A stretch of 33,104 nucleotides of DNA, taken from IMG/VR virus record IMGVR_UViG_2563366897_000003. One strand, 5' to 3'. The stretch comes from a virus. Taxonomy: Duplodnaviria > Heunggongvirae > Uroviricota > Caudoviricetes. The position numbers and the translations under genes were made by a program. The stretch's first letter is position 1; every line of letters begins with the position of its first letter. This document shows, one piece after another, positions 693-12,180 of the stretch. Below the pieces are notes generated by a model. The model was not told where the DNA came from and searched no databases. It saw nothing but the letters and a program-made list of their open reading frames with translations.

Positions 693-1331
693 TTAAATAT
701 CTTGTTGAATTTTAAAGCATACGCCCAATATGCAAGATAGATCATCCAGCATAATTGAAGGGTAGCGAGGATTCGTGGGGACTAAAAGAATATCCGGCCC
801 TTCTATCTCCAGTTTACGAATGACAGGTGTTGTGGTCCCTTTGGGTAAGGCAAGGACAATATTTCCTGGTTGTACGGTTCGATCGGGATCAATAAAAACT
901 GTTGAACCATTTGGGATGGAAACTCCCCCACCAGATGTTGACATACTGTCACTCTCTAGAACAACTGCAAAGGTATTGACCGGGATTTCTCCGACAAGCT
1001 GCACACAAGAGGTTATTGAGGAATTTTTCATATAATCACTCCAGCTTGCTGCCTGCTGAAGTGATAGTAGCGGAACCGTTTTTATCGGCGGTAAAGATAG
1101 ATCAAGCGAATCACCTGTATTTAACTCTCCTCCATTAAGAAGCCAATTTTCGTTTACTTTCAATATTTTTGCCAGTGAACTTATGTAACGCGAGGACGGC
1201 GCTCCTCCACCGTTCATCCATTGACTTACGGAGCCTTTTGATGCGCCAGTGCCATTGACAAGGTCTTTGCCTTTCAGGTTTAGCGCATGCATACGTTGGG
1301 TTATGCGTTCAGATATAGTTTGCTTGCTCAT
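693..1331 (-). CDS. cI: CI-like prophage repressor (N-terminal HTH, C-terminal S24/LexA-like autopeptidase)
   Basis: 212 aa; N-terminus has an XRE-type helix-turn-helix (QRMHALNLKGKDLVNGTGASKGSVSQW); C-terminus has an SDSMS Ser motif and a downstream Lys (VIRKL) typical of the LexA/CI Ser-Lys dyad; divergently arranged against a cro-like gene. Confidence 0.85.
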   Translation of the reverse strand: MSKQTISERITQRMHALNLKGKDLVNGTGASKGSVSQWMNGGGAPSSRYISSLAKILKVNENWLLNGGELNTGDSLDLSLPPIKTVPLLSLQQAASWSDYMKNSSITSCVQLVGEIPVNTFAVVLESDSMSTSGGGVSIPNGSTVFIDPDRTVQPGNIVLALPKGTTTPVIRKLEIEGPDILLVPTNPRYPSIMLDDLSCILGVCFKIQQDI

Positions 1332-1421
1332 GTTTTGATTTTAAAACACAGATGGTTTTGTTTCTTGACTTTTTTGGTTTTGATTATTAAACTTTTGACG
1401 TTCAGTTTTATGGAGCGACTC
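1332..1421. promoter_or_regulatory. divergent immunity promoter/operator region (pRM/pR-like)
   Basis: 90-bp AT-rich spacer between divergent repressor and cro-like genes; GTTTTGATT direct repeat at 1332-1340 and 1377-1385 plus GGTTTTG at 1354-1360 (candidate operator half-sites); candidate rightward promoter TTGACT (1365-1370) with 17-bp spacer to TAAACT (1388-1393). Confidence 0.45.
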
Positions 1422-1652
1422 ATGAAAAAATCAGAAGTATTAGGCTATTTTGGCGGAGTTGTTAAAACAGCCGCAGCTCTAGGAACGTCAAAAACCACAG
1501 TCAGCATGTGGGGGGAAGAGGTTCCGTGGAAATGGGCGTTGCTAATTCAGGCAGTCACTGCCGGGGCGCTCAAATATGAGTTACACATACCGACGGTTGT
1601 CATTCCCGGTTCTGATCATAATCCGCCTTCTAACCAAGGGGGGGATTCATGA
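1422..1652 (+). CDS. Cro/YdaS-like HTH regulator
   Basis: About 77 aa from the ATG at 1422 (GGAG 5 nt upstream; an alternative in-frame ATG lies at 1410); HTH-like segment VVKTAAALGTSKTTVSMW; position and orientation match cro/ydaS of lambdoid or Rac-type prophages. Confidence 0.7.
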   Translation: MKKSEVLGYFGGVVKTAAALGTSKTTVSMWGEEVPWKWALLIQAVTAGALKYELHIPTVVIPGSDHNPPSNQGGDS

Positions 1653-2074
1653 AAATCAAGCATGAACACATCCGCATGGCGATGAATGCCTGGGCGCATC
1701 CGGACGGCGAAAAAGTACCGGCTGCGAAAATTACCAAAGCGTATTTCGAGCTGGGAATGACGTTCCCGGAACTGTATGACGACAGCCATCCGGAAGCCCT
1801 GGCTCGCAATACCCAGAAAATTTTCCGCTGGGTAGAGAAAGACACCCCTGATGCAGTTGAAAAAATTCAGGCGTTGTTACCAGCGATCGAAAAGGCAATG
1901 CCACCTTTGCTGGTGGCCAGAATGCGCAGCCACAGTTCAGCTTATTTTCGGGAGCTGGTGGAGACGCGGGAGCGACTGGTGAGAGACGCTGATGATTTTG
2001 TCGCAGTGGCAATCGCCGGTTTCAATCAGATGAACCGTGGTGGCCCGGCAGGAAATGCTGTGGCAGTACATTGA
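1649..2074 (+). CDS. YdaT/CII-like regulatory protein
   Basis: 141 aa beginning MKIKHEHI..., overlapping the cro-like stop by 4 nt (ATGA); size, N-terminal motif and position match the YdaT family as recalled from memory. Confidence 0.6.
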   Translation: MKIKHEHIRMAMNAWAHPDGEKVPAAKITKAYFELGMTFPELYDDSHPEALARNTQKIFRWVEKDTPDAVEKIQALLPAIEKAMPPLLVARMRSHSSAYFRELVETRERLVRDADDFVAVAIAGFNQMNRGGPAGNAVAVH

Positions 2075-2139: not shown

Positions 2140-3216
2140 GTGAGTATGGCTAACGCTTGGCTCAGATTATGGCATGACATGCCAAATGACCCTAAGTGGC
2201 GAACAATTGCCAGGGTGTCAGGGCAGCCAATTGCAACAGTGATGGCAGTGTATATCCACCTCCTGGTGAGCGCGTCACGAAATGTCACGCGAGGTCACAT
2301 TGATGTCACGACAGAAGATTTAGCAAGTGCGCTCGACGTGACAGAAGAGGTAATTGATTCAATTTTGCAGACGATGCAGGGGCGGGTACTTGATGGTGAT
2401 TTAATCACTGGATGGGAAAAACGCCAGGTGCTTAAAGAGGACAACGGCAATATTTCGCAAACCGCAAAATCTCCGGCAGAGCGCAAGAGGGCGCAGCGAG
2501 AGAGGGAAAGAAAGCGGGAACAAAATGGCGATTGTCACGGCGCGTCACGAAATGTCACGCACATGTCACGACGAGTCACGACAGATAAAGATACAGATAA
2601 AGATACAGATCAAGAAGATCAAAACACTATGGTCCATGGCGTAAAAAACGCCACGAACCAGGCAGGGGATGTTCAGACCGTCAATCCTGGTCAGCCAGCA
2701 GGCACGACACCGGAAGCCGATTCAGCGTATGCGCTGAAAGCCGATTCGGGCGCTGTGCAGCAGGTGATGACCCCAAGGCCGGAACAATCACACCAACTGC
2801 AGCAGCCTGAAGCCGATTTCGCCATTCAGCGGGAAGCCGATCGGGTAGTCCCGGAAAACACCGGGCTGTCTGTGGGACGAGTGGATTATCCGGATGTGTT
2901 CGAACAGGTCTGGCGGGAGTACCCGTTGCGTGCCGGAGCAAACCCGAAGAAATCCGCTTTCAGTGCATGGAAGGCCAGATTACGCGAGGGGGTGCCACCA
3001 GAGGCCATGCTGGATGGCGTGAGGCGTTACGCAAGATACTTGGCGGCTACCGGGAAAACGGGAACGGAATTTGTTCAGCGAGCGACGACGTTTTTTGGAC
3101 CGGACCGGAATTTTGAGAACCCCTGGTTGCTCCCGGTAAGCGGCACGAACAACCAGCGTTGTGTGAATCATATTTCTGAACCGGATAACGAAATTCCGCC
3201 GGGCTTCAGGGGGTAA
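2140..3216 (+). CDS. replication initiator / phage replisome organizer with embedded origin iterons
   Basis: 358 aa; N-terminus (WLRLWHDMPNDPKWRTIA) resembles the phage replisome-organizer N-terminal domain; conserved C-terminal block WREYPLRAGANPKKSAFSAWKARL...FFGP; two iteron clusters lie inside the coding sequence, as in lambda O. Confidence 0.7.
   Translation: MSMANAWLRLWHDMPNDPKWRTIARVSGQPIATVMAVYIHLLVSASRNVTRGHIDVTTEDLASALDVTEEVIDSILQTMQGRVLDGDLITGWEKRQVLKEDNGNISQTAKSPAERKRAQRERERKREQNGDCHGASRNVTHMSRRVTTDKDTDKDTDQEDQNTMVHGVKNATNQAGDVQTVNPGQPAGTTPEADSAYALKADSGAVQQVMTPRPEQSHQLQQPEADFAIQREADRVVPENTGLSVGRVDYPDVFEQVWREYPLRAGANPKKSAFSAWKARLREGVPPEAMLDGVRRYARYLAATGKTGTEFVQRATTFFGPDRNFENPWLLPVSGTNNQRCVNHISEPDNEIPPGFRG
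2274..2620. repeat. putative replication origin: GTCACG iteron arrays plus a tandem 12-bp repeat
   Basis: GTCAC(G/A) at 2274, 2284, 2294, 2305 and again at 2534, 2544, 2554, 2565, 2575 (10-11 bp spacing, about one helical turn), an inverted copy at 2337-2342, then tandem ACAGATAAAGAT x2 (2581-2604). Confidence 0.6.
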
Positions 3217-3256: not shown

Positions 3257-3679
3257 GTGGCAAAAGTTTTTACACAAGAAGAGCGGGAAAAAATTAAAGG
3301 ACAGGTTGTTGAACTCGTACGCCAGAGTGGGCGCGAGACGTTACGACAACTGGAAACTAAAACTGGGGCAACAAGATATCTGATGAGCGTTCTGGCCAGA
3401 GAGCTGGTTGCCAGTGGCGATGTATACAATTCTGGCTACGGGTTATTCCCGTCTGAACAGGCTCGTAAAGACTGGCAAAATGCCCGCAAAAAATTATCGA
3501 GGGCAAAGCTGAAGAAACCGGTTGTGGTTGATCCGGACCTTATCTGGTCGTTACCTGACGGAGAAATACGTCGCTACGACAGTCGCCTAAACATAATCTG
3601 TCGCGAGTGCCGGAAGAGTGAAGCTATGCAGCGTGTACTGGCTTTCTATCAGGGTAATTTTCAGGAGGCGGTACTGTGA
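3257..3679 (+). CDS. hypothetical protein (140 aa)
   Basis: ORF track; GTG start preceded by CAGGAGG; follows the replication gene. No Walker motif, so not an obvious DnaC/P-type helicase loader. Confidence 0.5.
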   Translation: MAKVFTQEEREKIKGQVVELVRQSGRETLRQLETKTGATRYLMSVLARELVASGDVYNSGYGLFPSEQARKDWQNARKKLSRAKLKKPVVVDPDLIWSLPDGEIRRYDSRLNIICRECRKSEAMQRVLAFYQGNFQEAVL

Positions 3680-5201: not shown

Positions 5202-5460
5202 ATACAGCGAACGCCATTGGTTTAGTTGGATATTTACTGTGCCGGACAAAAACGGTTTGCGGGGAAATCTTAGTTAAGTAGAATGACTGCGGGTGCTTGA
5301 GGCTATCTGTCTCAGGCATGAACACCAAAAGGCAGATAGAGAAAAGCCCCAGTTAACATTACGCGTCCTGCAAGACGCTTAACATTAATCTGAGGCTCAA
5401 TCTATGAACGGCAAATCTAGGTTAGCCTCTTACGTGCCGAAAGGCAAGGAGAAGCAGGCT

Positions 5461-5616
5461 ATGAAGCAGCAAAAGGCGATGTTAATCGCCCTGATCGTCA
5501 TCTGTTTAACCGTCATAGTGACGGCACTGGTAACGAGGAAAGACCTCTGCGAGGTACGAATCCGAACCGGCCAGACGGAGGTCGCTGTCTTCACAGCTTA
5601 CGAACCTGAGGAGTAA
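5461..5616 (+). CDS. hok: Hok/Gef family type I toxin (HokD/RelF-like)
   Basis: MKQQKAMLIALIVICLTVIVTALVTRKDLCEVRIRTGQTEVAVFTAYEPEE is a clear Hok/Gef-family sequence; AAGGAG-like SD upstream; the track ORF starts earlier in frame at 5404 (possible leader/mok-like extension). Confidence 0.8.
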   Translation: MKQQKAMLIALIVICLTVIVTALVTRKDLCEVRIRTGQTEVAVFTAYEPEE

Positions 5617-7493: not shown

Positions 7494-8315
7494 ATGAAAC
7501 TGGAAGATTTACCGAAATACTACTCCCCAAAATCCCCTGGCCTGACCGATGCATCGGCCTCAACGTCAAAAGATGCGCTGAGTATCACTGATGTGATGGC
7601 CGCGCAGGGCATGACACAGAATCGGGCTGAGATGGGTTTTTCTGCGTTCCTGGGGAAAATGGGCATCAGTATGAATGACAGGGCGCGGGCAACAGAATTA
7701 CTGGCAGATTATGCACTCAGTCGGTGCGATCGTGTGGCGGCGTTGAGAAAACTTCCGGCAGAAATAAAACCGGTAGTGATGCGCATTATGGCTTCGTACG
7801 CTTTTGAGGATTATGCCCGCAGCGCAGCGAGTAAAAAGCAGTGCCCTTGTTGCTATGGGGAAAAATTTATTGAAAGCGTAGTTTTTACAAACAAGGTCCA
7901 GTATCCGGATGGTAAGCCACCAGTGTGGGCAAAGTGCACAAAAGGCGTGTATCCGTCTTACTGGGAAGAATGGAAAAAAGTCAGGGAGGTGGTAAAAGTT
8001 GCCTGTCCGGAGTGTGGCGGAAAGGGTGAGGTTTCCACCGCCTGTAAGGATTGCCGTGGGCGTGGTGTCGCCATTCATTGTGAAGAGTCGGTAAAACGTG
8101 GTATGCCTGTTATCAGAGACTGCCAGCGTTGTGGTGGTCGTGGCTATGAAAGACTACCATCAACGGAGGCATTTAATGCTATATGCGAGGTGACAAACCA
8201 GATAACACGCGCGTCATGGGAAAAAACAGTTAAGAAATTCTATGATGCGCTGGTGACCCGGTTTGATATTGAAGAAGCATGGGCTGAGCGGCAGTTAAAA
8301 AAGGTAACTAGGTAA
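7494..8315 (+). CDS. Q: late-gene antitermination protein Q (zinc-finger type)
   Basis: 273 aa with three CxxC pairs (CPECGGKGE, CKDCRGRG, CQRCGGRG); immediately upstream of a promoter/terminator pair, the tRNAs and the lysis genes. Confidence 0.75.
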   Translation: MKLEDLPKYYSPKSPGLTDASASTSKDALSITDVMAAQGMTQNRAEMGFSAFLGKMGISMNDRARATELLADYALSRCDRVAALRKLPAEIKPVVMRIMASYAFEDYARSAASKKQCPCCYGEKFIESVVFTNKVQYPDGKPPVWAKCTKGVYPSYWEEWKKVREVVKVACPECGGKGEVSTACKDCRGRGVAIHCEESVKRGMPVIRDCQRCGGRGYERLPSTEAFNAICEVTNQITRASWEKTVKKFYDALVTRFDIEEAWAERQLKKVTR

Positions 8316-8458: not shown

Positions 8459-8534
8459 GGCCCTTTAGCTCAGTGGTGAGAGCGAGCGACTCATAATCGC
8501 CAGGTCGCTGGTTCAAATCCAGCAAGAGCCACCA
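8459..8534 (+). tRNA. tRNA with CAU anticodon (ileX/ileZ-type tRNA-Ile2, or tRNA-Met)
   Basis: Cloverleaf readable by eye: GGCCCTT acceptor, GCTCAGTGG D-arm, CTCATAA anticodon loop (CAT), GGTTCAAATCC T-arm, encoded CCA at 8532-8534. Confidence 0.85.
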
Positions 8535-8634: not shown

Positions 8635-8708
8635 GCGTTGTTAGCTCAGCCGGACAGAGCAATTGCCTTCTAAGCAATCGGTCACTGGTTCGAATCCAGT
8701 ACAGCGCG
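8635..8708 (+). tRNA. tRNA-Arg (anticodon UCU, argN/argO-like)
   Basis: GCGTTGT acceptor pairs with ACAGCGC at the 3' end; CTTCTAA anticodon loop (TCT); GGTTCGAATCC T-arm; no encoded CCA. Confidence 0.85.
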
Positions 8709-9566
8709 CTATATTCATTCTTCCAGATTCCTTCCGGCAGAGCCTTATACTGAAATATACCTGGCTCAGGATATTGTTGAAAATATTTTATGTTTGTCAA
8801 AAATAAAAGTTCTGTTAAGTATTGATTGAGTGTTTGTTATACGGTCTAATGGTTTTTTCAGCATTAAATATTTATCATTCATATGGTGTGGGTAGAGTGA
8901 ATATTGATGAGGCGTCGGGGTGTTTCATCCTTAGGCAGCGTATTGATATAGTCAATGCAGGACGAGCAAAGGCCTTCAGCCGTTTGACAGTTTTGTTCTG
9001 TACTCCTGATCGTCTTTCGGGAAGAGACGTTATTATTCTGAATAGTGATGCTATACAGAGGGTTTGCGATGAGTTCATGGTTGCTAATTCAGAATTATTT
9101 GCTCTTGTTCAGGAGTACAACAGAATAGCCAGTACCTGTGGTATGGATGAACTTCGGATTACTCATCTGGGGTAGATACATATCTGGATTATCACTTGTT
9201 ACGGTAAAAAGTGATTGCTTACTGTTTTTGTGAGTGGCATTGCAGCAGCCGGATAATGTCAGTGCTGGCTGACGGTGTGCTGGTGGCGGGTGTGGTGGTT
9301 GTTGCTTTCCCGTTGCTGAAAAAGAAAACGCCAGACTGTTAGCCGGGTATCAGTTAGCGGGAGAAATTTTTAAATACTTCACAATTCAGGCGGTTGACTG
9401 TTGTCTGGTTTGCGGGGAGTTTGTTAAAAGAAACTGGCATGGTGAATCCCCCTGTGCGGAGGGGCAATCAGCGAGTAGGTATATGGGATAATCGCGGATT
9501 CAGGTGCTGGTACTGAATTCACCGGGAGGCACCCGGCACCATGCAATGGCACATAGCGCCACTCTC

Positions 9567-9602
9567 CAGCCCCTCTCCGGAGGGGCTGTTTATATTGATT
9601 TT
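9567..9602 (+). terminator. intrinsic terminator inside the cargo island
   Basis: CAGCCCCTC-TCCG-GAGGGGCTG (9-bp stem) followed by TTTATATTGATTTT. Confidence 0.5.
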
Positions 9603-10203: not shown

Positions 10204-12180
10204 ATGGTGGAAAGAACCATGGCATTTAAACACTATGATGTTGTCAGGGCGGCATCGCCGTCAGACCTTGCGAAACGACTGACACAAAAACTGAAGGAGG
10301 GGTGGCAGCCATTTGGCAGTCCGGTGGCCATCACGCCTTATACCCTGATGCAGGCCATTGCGGCGGAAGGTGATGTCACCACACCTGTGGTGGTGAAGCC
10401 GTCGGATGGAGAAGGCGCAGTTATCAGCACCACCAGCAACCCGGAGTATTACTTTGTTGTTGCCCTGGCCGGGCAGTCAAACGGTATGGCGTATGGTGAA
10501 GGGCTTCCGCTGCCGGAGACATATGACCGTCCGGACCCGCGTATTAAACAGCTGGCGCGTCGCAGCACTGTCACGCCGGGTGGTGCGTCCTGTAACTACA
10601 ATGACATTATTCCTGCGGACCACTGCCTGCATGATGTTCAGGATTTGAGTAAGTTTTCACACCCGAAAGCCAGCGCAGCTCAGTATGGATGCGTGGGGCA
10701 GGGATTACATATCGCGAAGAAATTGTTGCCGTTTATTCCGGCGAATGCCGGTATTCTTCTGGTTCCGTGCTGCCGTGGTGGTTCTGCATTTTTGGCGGGC
10801 GATGAAGGTACCTTCAGCGAATCCACCGGCGCAAGCGAGACCTCGGCACGCTGGGGTGTTGATAAGCCACTGTACAAGGACCTGCTTACCCGTACTCAGG
10901 CCGCACTGAAGGCCAACCCTAAAAATATTCTGCTTGCAGTGGTCTGGATGCAGGGCGAGTTTGATTTGAAACAGGGTGCATACGCCACTCAGCCGGGGCT
11001 GTTTGATTCCATGGTGGAAAAATATCGTTCTGACCTGTCGGAATTCGGAGGTCAGTGTCTCGGGGGCTCTCCGTCATCGGTTCCCTGGATTTGTGGCGAC
11101 ACGACCTACTACTGGAAGCAGACTTATTCTTCGCAATACGATGCGGTGTATGGTGCATACAAGACGAAATCCGCAAAAAAAATCTTCTTTGTGCCGTTTA
11201 TGACGGATGAAAACGGGCGAAATGTGGGTACCAACGAGCCGTCAGAAGATCCGGATGTTGCGGATATTGGGTATTACGGAGCCGGTGGTCGAACGGACGC
11301 CAAAACCTGGACGACGGCCGACCGTAAAACGCATTTTGGATCATGGGCACGTCGTGGGATTATTTCCGACCGTCTGGCAACGGCGATTCTTGTGCATGCC
11401 GGGAGAAACGCTGAATTCATTACCGGAAAACAGCCTGATACGGTGAAGCCCACCGGACCTTCCGGTGAAGGTACGGAGAGAGAGCCGGAAGCCCCGGTCA
11501 GTAACCGAACCCTGATGAGTCTGCTGGCGTCCGGCGAAGACCTGGCATCACAGGGCTGGCGCTATTATCACAAACCGGCGAGCGGAGACAATGTTAACAA
11601 AAACATTGCTGAAGCGGTGGTCAGTGATGCGGGGGCTACGGGAGGTAAGGCCCTGCAACTGAATAAACCGGAAAACCACATCTGGTTTCTGGAGCATGAT
11701 GCAGCCGGACAGGGAGTGGAGTTACTGAAGAAGGGGGGACGTGTGAGCGTACGGTTTAAGTTGCCGGGTTCACTGGTGCCGAATCAGTTTGCCCTGGGCA
11801 TTTACTGGCAGTTGTCGTCCCTGCCGGAGGGAGTGACGCTGGCAGAGGAAGGCAACGACATGCTGATGTCCTTCTTTCTGCAGACGGATGCGACGAACCT
11901 GAACGCGATGCACCACAAGAAGCCGAATGCGAAGCTGGAAACGTTCGGGGTCTTTGATAACGGATGGCACACACTGGCTTTTGAGTTTGCCGGAAACAAC
12001 AGCATTCAGGTGACGCCGGTACTGGATGAGAAACGGGGGACGCCGTTCACACTGGTGAAATCTCCGGCATCAGGGGCGGCGGACAAACTGCAACTGACAG
12101 GCATATCAAAGGCGGCGACATATACGCTGCTGATTGACAGTGTGAAGGTGGAAGTGAACAACGCGGACATCGCGGCATGA
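10204..12180 (+). CDS. nanS: NanS-p-type prophage sialate O-acetylesterase (DUF1737 N-terminus plus SGNH/SASA esterase domain)
   Basis: 658 aa; N-terminus AFKHYDVVRAASPSDLAKRLTQKLKEGWQPFGSPVAIT is the DUF1737-type leader of EHEC prophage NanS-p/L0105-like proteins; sits between Q/tRNAs and the holin as in Stx-phage-like prophages. True start may be the ATG at 10219. Confidence 0.8.
   Translation: MVERTMAFKHYDVVRAASPSDLAKRLTQKLKEGWQPFGSPVAITPYTLMQAIAAEGDVTTPVVVKPSDGEGAVISTTSNPEYYFVVALAGQSNGMAYGEGLPLPETYDRPDPRIKQLARRSTVTPGGASCNYNDIIPADHCLHDVQDLSKFSHPKASAAQYGCVGQGLHIAKKLLPFIPANAGILLVPCCRGGSAFLAGDEGTFSESTGASETSARWGVDKPLYKDLLTRTQAALKANPKNILLAVVWMQGEFDLKQGAYATQPGLFDSMVEKYRSDLSEFGGQCLGGSPSSVPWICGDTTYYWKQTYSSQYDAVYGAYKTKSAKKIFFVPFMTDENGRNVGTNEPSEDPDVADIGYYGAGGRTDAKTWTTADRKTHFGSWARRGIISDRLATAILVHAGRNAEFITGKQPDTVKPTGPSGEGTEREPEAPVSNRTLMSLLASGEDLASQGWRYYHKPASGDNVNKNIAEAVVSDAGATGGKALQLNKPENHIWFLEHDAAGQGVELLKKGGRVSVRFKLPGSLVPNQFALGIYWQLSSLPEGVTLAEEGNDMLMSFFLQTDATNLNAMHHKKPNAKLETFGVFDNGWHTLAFEFAGNNSIQVTPVLDEKRGTPFTLVKSPASGAADKLQLTGISKAATYTLLIDSVKVEVNNADIAA

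What the first reader, a model, noticed from the sequence alone, without database searches (positions are those of the whole stretch)
2274..2620. Origin-like iteron arrays embedded in the replication initiator gene
Seen: nine GTCAC(G/A) hexamers in two clusters (2274-2310 and 2534-2580) spaced 10-11 bp, an inverted copy at 2337-2342, and a tandem 12-bp repeat (ACAGATAAAGAT x2) immediately after the second cluster; all lie inside the 358-aa replication gene and encode part of its linker. Established: lambda ori lies within gene O as iterons plus an AT-rich segment. Inference: this is the prophage replication origin, and the helical phasing places initiator binding on one DNA face. No DnaC/P-type helicase loader gene follows, so origin firing may depend on host factors.
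Basis: partly seen in the sequence, partly recalled or inferred. Interest (0 to 1): 0.45.

Follow-up and report, generated by a model that had tools for sequence, protein, structure and literature searches.

The report
Phage replication origin inside initiator gene
The short GTCACG repeats are real and are almost certainly the prophage's replication origin, written into the gene of the protein predicted to bind them: a familiar lambda-like design, here in an unstudied but very widespread initiator family.

Summary
Ten of the window's 30 GTCAC(G/A) hexamers lie in 2274-2580. Four are direct copies (array 1), one is inverted, and five are direct copies (array 2). Spacing is 10-11 bp, and an AT-rich (ACAGATAAAGAT)x2.9 tract follows array 2 immediately.

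The repeats are under selection as DNA. They fall in all three codon phases. In 21 homologues from genomes of 34-69% GC, the codons overlapping them are frozen (normalised codon entropy 0.10 against 0.79; P<1e-5). The layout of array 1, array 2 and a GATAAA tract holds across the family, and both arrays change core together (GTCACG, GTAACG, CGAACGC, GTGACGC).

The protein has a winged-helix N-domain, a disordered linker and a swappable C-domain. The mosaic junction lies just after the AT tract. Elsewhere the same N-module sits upstream of lambda-P-like, DnaC-like or DnaB-like genes.

The best reading is a lambda-like origin (initiator-binding repeats, called iterons, plus an unwinding element) inside its own initiator gene. 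No experiment supports this yet.

Array 1 encodes a loop inside the folded DNA-binding domain, not the linker. The gene probably starts at ATG 2146.

No loader gene follows. The protein ends in a copy of the DnaT C-terminal tail, which suggests host helicase-loading factors are used.

The parts
2146..3216 (+). Replication initiator gene (356 aa from ATG 2146; the mechanical ORF starts at GTG 2140). It has a winged-helix N-domain (aa 1-95), a basic helix (about aa 110-126), a disordered linker (about aa 128-240) and a small helical C-domain (about aa 250-330) with a DnaT-like tail.
2274..2310 (+). Iteron array 1: four GTCAC(G/A) cores spaced 10, 10 and 11 bp, in codon phases 2, 0, 1, 0. It encodes aa 43-55 (ASRNVTRGHIDVT), the helix-1 end and loop/beta-1 of the winged helix.
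   Evidence: The same positions (nt 128, 138, 148, 159 from the ATG) recur in about 22 homologues. Codons are frozen: Ser TCA, Val GTC, Thr ACG, Gly GGT, His CAC. Relatives L001, L002 and L007 carry two extra units (+21 bp = 7 codons).
2337..2342 (-). A single inverted copy of the core (CGTGAC on the + strand), 27 bp after array 1.
   Evidence: Present at the same position in 17 of 22 homologues but conserved less strictly than the direct copies (consensus). Its function is uncertain.
2534..2580 (+). Iteron array 2: five GTCACG cores spaced 10, 10, 11 and 10 bp, in codon phases 1, 2, 0, 2, 0. It encodes aa 130-145 of the disordered linker.
   Evidence: Homologues have 3-5 copies at the equivalent place. 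The spacers differ between relatives while the cores do not.
2581..2628 (.). AT-rich tract, purine-rich on the top strand and directly abutting array 2: (ACAGATAAAGAT)x2.9 at 2581-2615, with two GATC sites (2608-2611, 2617-2620). This is the candidate DNA-unwinding element.
   Evidence: TRF. GC is 30% at 2580-2619. It is the lowest-GC 40-mer of the first 900 nt of the gene in the window and at or next to that minimum in nearly all of the 23 loci, including genomes of 61-69% GC. The same AGATAAAGATA tract follows array 2 in subfamilies with other iteron cores.
2603..2621 (.). Mosaic junction between the N-terminal module (DNA-binding domain plus both arrays plus the start of the AT tract) and the exchangeable C-terminal module.
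   Evidence: L001 and L002 share window 2140-2603 and then diverge completely. L003 and L005 share window from about 2621 to 3216 behind a different N-module.
2630..2660 (.). Imperfect palindrome (13-bp arms, 5-nt loop) just beyond the AT tract. Its role is uncertain.
   Evidence: (I15). GC-rich hairpins follow the AT tract in several relatives, but this is only a weak trend: 8 of 23 loci at <=10% control frequency.
3151..3213 (+). C-terminal 21 aa, NQRCVNHISEPDNEIPPGFRG, a near copy of the extreme C-terminus of E. coli DnaT (aa 159-179). It is a candidate contact for host helicase-loading factors.
   Evidence: 15 of 21 residues identical, and both sequences end at the protein C-terminus. The coding segment is shared by different initiator genes in E. 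coli prophages.
3257..3679 (+). The next gene (DUF977 / LygF / Ren-like). It marks the absence of any phage helicase or helicase-loader gene after the initiator.
   Evidence: Pfam DUF977 and PHROG Ren-like. The genes up to Q (7494-8315) are a zinc-ribbon protein, small ORFs, hok/sok, DUF968/HNH and RusA.
693..2074 (.). Upstream immunity and early region that would drive transcription into the origin: CI-type repressor (693-1331, minus strand), Cro (inside ORF 1287-1652, plus strand) and a YdaT/CII-like gene (1649-2074, plus strand).
   Evidence: Pfam Peptidase_S24+HTH_3, P22_Cro and YdaT_toxin. PHROG CII-like activator.

Best explanation
Window 2274-2628 is the replication origin of a lambdoid prophage, embedded in the gene of its own initiator.

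Proposed mechanism, with each step marked:
1. After derepression, rightward early transcription (Cro, then the YdaT/CII-like gene, then the initiator) produces the 356-aa protein. Inferred from gene order.
2. Its N-terminal winged-helix domain binds the 6-bp GTCACG cores. The fold is predicted; the binding is inferred.
3. The cores recur about every helical turn (mean 10.25 bp), so the bound proteins line up on one face of the DNA in two arrays about 230 bp apart, forming an oligomeric, probably bent or looped nucleoprotein complex. The geometry is shown; the complex is inferred.
4. That complex destabilises the (GATAAA)n AT-rich tract that directly abuts array 2. The tract's position and conservation are shown; unwinding is inferred.
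5. The disordered linker presents the C-terminal domain, which recruits the replicative helicase through whichever partner that C-module is matched to. In relatives the partner is a lambda-P-like, DnaC-like or DnaB-like gene product.
6. In this prophage no partner gene is present. The DnaT-like C-terminal tail is the candidate handle for the host DnaB-DnaC loading machinery. Inferred.
For: 1. Clustering is far beyond chance and unique in the window.
2. The hexamers occupy all three reading frames, so no peptide repeat can explain them.
3. Codon test, with hexamer columns defined from the window alone and measured in 21 other loci. Normalised codon entropy is 0.10 (11 codons) against 0.79 (51 other equally conserved residues), permutation P<1e-5. 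Identical codons at identical residues run at 91-100% inside the hexamers and 24-47% outside.
4. Array positions, spacing and orientation are the same in hosts from 34% to 69% GC.
5. Only the core carries information in a logo built from 175 units: GTCAC 2 bits at each position, +6 G in 86%, spacers near 0 bits.
6. The AT-rich tract always abuts array 2 and sits at or next to the gene's GC minimum, even in GC-rich genomes.
7. More distant homologues keep the two-array, 10-bp-period layout and the GATAAA tract but use other cores: GTAACG, CGAACGC, GTGACGC. Both arrays always change together.
8. Copy-number changes come in whole units that preserve the frame: 21 bp = 2 units = 7 codons.
9. The N-domain is a winged helix. 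Array 2 and the AT tract lie in a disordered linker.
10. The mosaic junction falls right after the origin, as expected if the binding domain and its sites must travel together.
11. The same N-module sits upstream of lambda-P-like, IstB/DnaC-like, Toprim-DnaB or DnaB-like genes in other genomes.
12. The design matches two experimentally established cases: ori-lambda inside gene O (PMC6022878, PMC7466680) and SPP1 oriL inside gene 38 (PMC6316719).
Against: - There is no experimental evidence of binding, unwinding or initiation for any member of this family. I found no paper describing it.
- The initiator is not a recognised member of the lambda O or SPP1 G38P families. It has no Pfam hit, and PF09681 is only sub-threshold.
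- The cores are direct 6-bp repeats without the dyad symmetry of lambda iterons, so the binding mode must differ.
- The distance between the arrays is not held to a constant helical phase (211-247 bp), which weakens any specific looping model.
- The sequences are phylogenetically related, so the codon statistics overstate independence.
- Because the sites lie inside the gene, co-variation of site and protein is partly forced by the coding overlap.
- How a helicase would be loaded without a phage loader is not shown.
Confidence: 0.8

Rival explanations
1. The arrays are binding sites for the initiator, but they serve mainly for autoregulation or copy control: a roadblock or operator inside its own gene, or handcuffing between the two arrays. 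Replication would start elsewhere in the phage.
For: Iteron-binding plasmid initiators commonly autoregulate as well (general knowledge). Two separated arrays plus an inverted copy would suit looping or repression. Nothing here shows unwinding.
Against: The strictly conserved AT-rich, purine-rich tract abutting array 2 is the hallmark of an unwinding element and has no obvious role in repression. No second cluster of cores exists in the 33-kb window or in 25 related loci, apart from one extra cluster in L012. The origin-inside-initiator layout matches lambda and SPP1 (PMC6022878, PMC6316719). The two functions do not exclude each other.
Confidence: 0.08
2. The hexamers are recognised by a different protein, either a host factor or a neighbouring phage regulator such as the YdaT/CII-like or DUF977 protein, and are unrelated to the initiator's own DNA binding.
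For: Binding was not tested. The upstream YdaT/CII-like gene and the downstream DUF977 gene are DNA-binding candidates.
Against: The arrays travel with the N-domain across hosts from E. coli to Pseudomonas, Bordetella and Chromobacterium, while the flanking genes differ. The core switches between subfamilies of the N-domain within similar hosts, which a conserved host factor would not allow. No DnaA box with <=1 mismatch lies near the region.
Confidence: 0.05
3. The repeats are a by-product of protein-level constraints (a conserved SRNVT-type peptide motif present twice) or of recent local duplication, with no function as DNA.
For: The peptides ASRNVT(R/H) occur in both arrays. A 21-nt stretch is identical between them (2270-2290 and 2540-2560), which indicates duplication. 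The motif ASRNVTRGH is highly conserved as protein.
Against: The cores lie in all three codon phases. Synonymous positions inside the cores are frozen while other equally conserved residues vary freely in codon choice. Cores are invariant while the spacers, and the peptides they encode, vary. The arrays persist across deep divergence, about 60% amino-acid identity.
Confidence: 0.02

Closest known systems
ori-lambda inside gene O of phage lambda and lambdoid Stx phages (O/P system)
   Same: Initiator-binding repeats followed directly by an AT-rich unwinding region, all inside the initiator ORF. The initiator has an N-terminal DNA-binding part, a flexible linker and a C-terminal partner-recruiting part. 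Iteron number varies between relatives (4 or 6 in lambda and Stx phages). The position in the early right operon after cro/cII is the same (PMC6022878, PMC7466680).
   Different: Lambda iterons are 18-19 bp with dyad symmetry, each bound by an O dimer, and form one array. Here the cores are 6-bp direct repeats on a 10-bp period in two arrays about 230 bp apart, and the first array lies inside the coding region of the DNA-binding domain itself. No sequence relationship to lambda O was detected (no Pfam hit). No P gene follows in this window.
SPP1 oriL inside gene 38 (G38P 'replisome organizer')
   Same: Direct repeats plus an AT-rich DUE located within the origin-binding protein's own gene, bound by that protein (PMC6316719). 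NCBI and some depositors label this E. coli protein 'phage replisome organizer'. There is a weak full-length match to Pfam PF09681.
   Different: The PF09681 match is below Pfam's threshold (16.6 against 23.3 bits), and none of 39 homologues passes it. SPP1 encodes its own loader (gp39) and helicase (gp40) and has a second origin, oriR. This window has neither a loader and helicase nor a second cluster of cores.
E. coli DnaT (primosomal protein; dnaT-dnaC operon) and DnaT_C-containing phage O-like proteins / DopC
   Same: The last 21 residues are 15/21 identical to the DnaT C-terminus. In sister prophages the same initiator is followed by a DnaC-like gene, the same order as dnaT-dnaC. Relatives with the same N-module carry a true DnaT DNA-binding domain, PF17948. 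Phage O-like proteins with a DnaT C-terminal domain have been described (PMC5509034).
   Different: The window protein lacks the DnaT ssDNA-binding domain itself; only the tail matches. DnaT is recruited by PriA/PriB to forks, not by sequence-specific repeats (PMC13377028).
SaPI (staphylococcal pathogenicity island) origins (recalled from memory, not checked here)
   Same: Short hexanucleotide iterons in two sets, associated with an AT-rich region next to the rep gene.
   Different: As I recall, the SaPI ori lies after the rep gene, the AT-rich region sits between the two iteron sets, and Rep is itself a helicase. Here the origin is inside the gene, the AT tract follows the second set, and the initiator has no helicase domain.

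Membership tests
Lambda-type origin (iterons + AT-rich DUE inside the initiator gene) | Several repeated sites clustered inside the initiator ORF, far beyond chance | tested here: met
   Ten cores lie in 307 bp, and 0 of 100,000 random placements reach that number. These are the only such clusters in the window.
Lambda-type origin (iterons + AT-rich DUE inside the initiator gene) | An AT-rich, easily unwound region directly adjacent to the repeats | tested here: met
   GC is 30% at 2580-2619, abutting array 2. It is conserved as the local GC minimum in 23 loci, including GC-rich genomes. Unwinding itself was not tested.
Lambda-type origin (iterons + AT-rich DUE inside the initiator gene) | Repeats are bound by the initiator encoded by the same gene | not testable with these tools
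   Support is indirect only: a winged-helix N-domain, concerted core switching with N-domain subfamilies, and a mosaic junction after the origin.
Lambda-type origin (iterons + AT-rich DUE inside the initiator gene) | Iterons of about 18-19 bp with internal dyad symmetry (one O dimer per iteron) | tested here: not met
   Only a 6-bp asymmetric core carries information and the spacers carry about 0 bits. The period is 10-11 bp.
Lambda-type origin (iterons + AT-rich DUE inside the initiator gene) | Initiator homologous to lambda O, with a P-type partner gene downstream | tested here: not met
   No Pfam family at E<=0.01. The next gene is DUF977. P-like genes do follow the same N-module in other genomes.
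SPP1 G38P-type replisome organizer (Pfam PF09681 Phage_rep_org_N) | N-domain scores above the Pfam gathering threshold | tested here: not met
   16.6 bits against a 23.3 cut-off, E=0.008, although the match spans profile positions 1-119 of 121. None of 39 homologues matches at E<=0.01.
SPP1 G38P-type replisome organizer (Pfam PF09681 Phage_rep_org_N) | Origin with direct repeats plus an AT-rich DUE within the organizer gene | tested here: met
   compared with the description in PMC6316719.
Winged-helix DNA-binding domain | Helix-turn-helix followed by a beta-hairpin wing in a confident model, with structural matches to known wHTH domains | tested here: met
DnaD-like C-terminal domain (helicase-loader recruitment) | Structural or sequence match to the DnaD/DnaB_2 domain | tested here: inconclusive
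DnaT (primosomal protein) | DnaT ssDNA-binding three-helix domain (PF17948) | tested here: not met
   Absent from the window protein but present in L001, which shares the N-module.
DnaT (primosomal protein) | Conserved extreme C-terminal tail ...VSEPDxxIPPGFRG | tested here: met
   15 of 21 residues are identical to E. coli DnaT 159-179, and both end at the C-terminus.

The most novel reading that the evidence does not exclude
Site and reader may be physically the same DNA. Array 1 encodes the loop/beta-1 of the initiator's own winged helix, and array 2 encodes a matching peptide in the linker.

Between the GTCAC and CGAACGC subfamilies the recognition helix and wing are unchanged (48 shared-conserved columns). 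Only four columns are group-specific. Three of them (V47A, H131N, S134E) lie in the iteron-encoded segments and the fourth is Q117W.

If those iteron-encoded peptides are themselves the specificity determinants, then a change of iteron sequence would rewrite the element that reads it in the same step. That would give this family a built-in route to new replicon specificities.

A related possibility is that the DnaT-like tail lets the initiator load host DnaB without any phage loader, and would show what the DnaT tail is for.
Probability: 0.15. Interest if true: 0.8.

Novelty: new variant of a known kind. Interest (0 to 1): 0.5.

Why it matters
- **A common replicon gets a candidate origin.** At least 1,647 of 5,426 complete E. 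coli genomes carry this initiator gene. Its N-module occurs in prophages of Gamma-, Beta- and Alphaproteobacteria and beyond. The gene is mostly annotated 'hypothetical protein' and the family has no Pfam model.
- **A clean case of dual coding.** A regulatory DNA array is maintained inside a protein-coding region in all three frames, with measurable freezing of synonymous sites.
- **A natural series of specificity switches.** Matched initiator and iteron variants (GTCACG, GTAACG, CGAACGC, GTGACGC) are available for study.
- **A lead on helicase loading.** The loaderless arrangement and the DnaT-like tail bear on a question that recent structural work calls open: how DnaT-type proteins recruit DnaB-DnaC (PMC13377028).
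- **Practical uses.** The origin could seed new narrow- or broad-host vectors. It also offers a marker for typing prophage replication modules, which current Stx-phage 'Eru' schemes define by genes only (PMC8044961, PMC8951638).

Tried and rejected
- **Family searches on the initiator.** Pfam gave no hit. NCBIfam gave only the DnaT tail.
- **PF09681 membership.** Sub-threshold, and no homologue passes.
- **PDB sequence search.** Only the DnaT tail matched.
- **DnaA boxes.** None with <=1 mismatch lies near the origin. The TATATCCACC at 2251 has two mismatches and its third codon positions are not conserved.
- **Promoter and terminator scan.** Nothing above chance. A minus-strand terminator-like hairpin at 2660-2630 is noted but not pursued.
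- **A lambda-like palindrome after the AT tract as a family feature.** Only a weak trend: 8 of 23 loci, median control frequency 0.18.
- **Constant helical phase between the two arrays.** Not supported; the gap is 211-247 bp.
- **Literature.** The Eru papers on Stx-phage replication regions do not mention iterons or origins. A full-text search for GTCACG plus 'iteron' returned nothing relevant. The DnaT papers read do not say what the C-terminal tail does.
- **Phage database.** None of the phages carrying the N-module is a well-studied model with a mapped origin.
- **First codon-entropy test.** In one search the columns were chosen by DNA conservation, which is circular. I repeated the test with columns defined from the window alone and got the same result.
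Full report
**Observation.** The window holds 30 GTCAC(G/A) hexamers on both strands, which is the number expected by chance. Ten of them lie between 2274 and 2580:
- Four direct copies at 2274, 2284, 2294 and 2305.
- One inverted copy at 2337-2342.
- Five direct copies at 2534, 2544, 2554, 2565 and 2575.

Spacings are 10, 10, 11 and 10, 10, 11, 10. None of 100,000 random placements of 30 sites put 10 in any 310-bp span; the maximum was 6. No other cluster of three or more cores exists in the 33 kb. Directly after the last core comes (ACAGATAAAGAT)x2.9 at 2581-2615. This coincides with the GC minimum of the gene, 30% at 2580-2619.

**Context.** The repeats lie in ORF 2140-3216. The real start is probably ATG 2146, because homologues begin MANxWLRLWHD. 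Upstream are a CI-type repressor, a P22-type Cro and a YdaT/CII-like gene. Downstream are DUF977 (LygF/Ren-like), a zinc-ribbon protein, small ORFs, hok/sok, DUF968/HNH, RusA and antiterminator Q. This is the early right operon of a lambdoid prophage.

The protein matches PHROG 3729, 'replication initiation protein', over its full length, but it has no Pfam family. The gene is present at >=80% coverage in 1,647 of 5,426 complete E. coli genomes. It is usually annotated 'hypothetical protein' and sometimes 'phage replisome organizer'. It also occurs in deposited phage genomes such as Tritos, Evi and vB_EcoS-640R1.

**The repeats are selected as DNA.** The nine direct cores occupy codon phases 2, 0, 1, 0 and 1, 2, 0, 2, 0, so no repeated peptide can generate them.

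A scan of representative genomes with an alignment of N-domain homologues returned 60 loci. In about 22 of them the cores sit at the same distances from the start codon: nt 128, 138, 148, 159; inverted copy at 192; and about 388, 398, 408 (and 417). These loci include Escherichia, Serratia, Rahnella, Pseudomonas, Bordetella, Acidovorax, Chromobacterium, Castellaniella and Pseudothauera, with locus GC from 34% to 69%.

In a codon alignment I defined the hexamer columns from the window sequence alone and measured codon usage in the 21 other sequences. Among residues conserved in at least 90% of sequences:
- The 11 codons whose third base lies in a core have mean normalised entropy 0.10.
- The 51 other codons have 0.79 (permutation P<1e-5).
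- Ser is always TCA, Val GTC, Thr ACG, Gly GGT and His CAC.
- Codon identity with the window at identical residues is 91-100% inside cores and 24-47% outside (first version).

A logo from 175 units shows information only in GTCAC (2 bits at each position) plus G at +6 (86%). The spacers carry about 0 bits. Close relatives differ in spacers but not in cores. Spacings are 10 bp (96 cases) or 11 bp (32 cases), mean 10.25 bp, about one helical turn.

Copy number changes by frame-preserving pairs of units. L001, L002 and L007 have two more units in array 1 (+21 bp = 7 codons). The window has two more in array 2 than most relatives.

**A conserved three-part layout.** In all 23 loci of the GTCAC type, the last core of array 2 is followed at once by (A/C)(C/T)AGATAAAGATAAAGA... 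This tract is purine-rich on the coding strand. It lies at or next to the lowest-GC 40-mer of the first 900 nt of the gene, including in genomes of 61-69% GC, where Asp and Lys are still written GAT and AAA.

More distant homologues (about 35-57% identity) lack GTCAC. They keep two arrays at the same places with a 10-bp period and the same AGATAAAGATA tract. Their cores are GTAACG, CGAACGC or GTGACGC, and within a locus both arrays always use the same core. An unrelated N-module that shares this gene's C-terminal half (an O157-type prophage, L003) shows the same layout with AAGGGGCTT repeats 256 bp apart followed by a purine tract.

Concerted change of two arrays about 230 bp apart, which encode different peptides, points to one common reader that evolves with the module.

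**The protein.**
- *Where the arrays fall.* Array 1 (aa 43-55) encodes the end of helix 1 and the loop/beta-1 of this domain, not the linker. Array 2 and the 12-mers encode the disordered linker.
- *Pfam.* PF09681 (N-terminal phage replisome organiser) matches end to end but below threshold, 16.6 against 23.3 bits. No homologue passes.

**Modularity and neighbours.** E. coli relatives L001 and L002 share window 2140-2603, which covers both arrays and the first part of the AT tract. They then switch to a DnaT-domain C-terminus followed by a lambda-P-like gene. L003 and Shigella phage 75/02 Stx share window from about 2621 to 3216 behind another N-module and are followed by a DnaC/IstB-like ATPase. 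The junction thus lies right after the origin. Lambda genetics predicts this if the binding domain and its sites must be inherited together (PMC6022878).

Across genera the GTCAC N-module precedes different partners:
- Lambda-P-like genes: L008, L010, L030.
- IstB/DnaC-like genes: L021, L022.
- A Toprim-DnaB primase-helicase: L017.
- A DnaB-like helicase: a 50.9-kb circular P. aeruginosa record.
- Nothing recognisable: the window, Tritos, L018, L025, L026.

The flanking regulators differ as well, so the only constant companion of the arrays is the N-domain.

**The missing loader.** Nothing between the initiator and Q resembles a helicase or a loader. This is not a one-off deletion. The junction 'initiator tail then DUF977' occurs in at least 2,595 E. 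coli genomes, and 'tail then DnaC-like ATPase' in at least 1,365. One of the latter is a 97%-identical copy of this very gene (L067).

The last 21 residues, NQRCVNHISEPDNEIPPGFRG, are 15/21 identical to the extreme C-terminus of E. coli DnaT, and both end the protein. dnaT lies directly upstream of dnaC in E. coli, and genetic interactions between the two are cited in PMC13377028. That paper also states that how DnaT recruits DnaB/DnaC is unknown. Phage O-like proteins with DnaT C-terminal elements have been noted before (PMC5509034).

I therefore infer, without proof, that the tail is the handle for a DnaC-type loader. That loader would be phage-encoded where present and the host's where not.

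**Mechanism proposed.**
1. Early transcription produces the initiator.
2. Its winged helix binds the cores on one face of the DNA in two arrays.
3. The oligomeric complex stresses and opens the adjacent GATAAA tract.
4. The linker-tethered C-domain and tail bring in DnaB through host DnaC.

*Shown here:* the anatomy, DNA-level selection, conservation, co-variation, the predicted fold, the mosaicism and the gene neighbourhoods.
*Inferred:* binding, unwinding and helicase recruitment.

**Rivals.**
- A purely autoregulatory role cannot be excluded, but it does not explain the invariant AT tract.
- A different binding protein is unlikely, because neighbours and hosts vary while the cores track the N-domain.
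- A protein-level or chance origin is contradicted by the frame and codon analyses.

**Comparison and novelty.** Functionally this is the lambda and SPP1 design: iterons plus a DUE inside the initiator gene (PMC6022878, PMC7466680, PMC6316719). It differs in four ways:
- The initiator family has no Pfam model and is unrelated to lambda O.
- The sites are asymmetric 6-bp cores on a 10-bp period rather than 18-19-bp dyads.
- There are two arrays about 230 bp apart, and the first lies within the coding sequence of the DNA-binding domain.
- The GATAAA tract is conserved across the whole family.

I found no publication describing it. None of the phages that carry it is a studied model. I rate it a new variant of a known kind.

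One intriguing point is left open. Between the GTCAC and CGAACGC subfamilies the recognition helix and wing are unchanged. Three of the four group-specific residues lie in the iteron-encoded peptides, so the sites may encode part of their own reader.

Noticed in passing
window 3151-3213: The initiator ends with NQRCVNHISEPDNEIPPGFRG, which is 15/21 identical to the extreme C-terminus of E. coli DnaT (aa 159-179). The 63-nt segment that encodes it is shared by several different initiator genes in E. coli prophages. It is followed either directly by DUF977 (>=2,595 genomes) or by a DnaC-like ATPase (>=1,365 genomes). The papers I read do not say what this tail does in DnaT.
   Followed up: partly
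window 2603-2621: Sharp mosaic junction inside the gene. Relatives share either everything to the left (N-domain, both arrays and the start of the AT tract) or everything to the right (C-domain and tail).
   Followed up: yes
window 2630-2660: Imperfect palindrome (13-bp arms) just after the AT tract. On the minus strand it pairs fully with two G-U pairs and is followed by the T-rich complement of the AT tract, so it looks like a terminator. GC-rich hairpins follow the AT tract in some relatives, but only as a weak trend.
   Followed up: partly
window 2140-2146: The ORF finder starts the gene at GTG 2140. Homologues and the RefSeq annotation of relatives start at the ATG equivalent to 2146, giving 356 aa rather than 358.
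   Followed up: yes
L003 2160-2201 and 2416-2498 (E. coli ERL06-2497 prophage); L005 (Shigella phage 75/02 Stx): A different, unclassified N-terminal module fused to the same C-domain has the same layout: two clusters of AAGGGGCTT repeats (11-bp period) 256 bp apart, followed by a purine-rich tandem repeat. This is probably the origin of those Stx-type prophages.
   Followed up: partly
L066 (P. aeruginosa CP137943.1, 50.9-kb circular record filed as a plasmid): The record is a lambdoid-type phage genome that carries the GTCAC-type initiator followed by a DnaB-like helicase. A second, near-identical record (CP124671.1) also exists. They may be episomal or actively replicating phage DNA captured in the assemblies.
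   Followed up: no
alignment of N-domains; window aa 47, 117, 131, 134: Only four residues are fixed differently between the GTCAC-type and CGAACGC-type initiators: V47A, Q117W, H131N and S134E. The recognition helix and the wing are shared.
   Followed up: partly
window 5291-5616, 8459-8531, 8635-8708, 9408-9597: A hok/sok-type toxin-antitoxin locus (sok RNA match plus a small Hok-like ORF), two tRNA genes downstream of Q, and the sRNA STnc100.
   Followed up: no
window 10204-12180: A 658-aa protein with DUF1737, SASA (sialate O-acetylesterase-like) and DUF6645 domains lies in the late region downstream of Q. It resembles the NanS-p type esterase genes seen in Stx-phage-like prophages.
   Followed up: no
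L012 5317-5351 (Bordetella sp. locus): This is the only extra cluster of three or more GTCAC/GTGAC cores found outside the two arrays in 26 sequences examined. It lies about 2.3 kb downstream of the initiator start.
   Followed up: no
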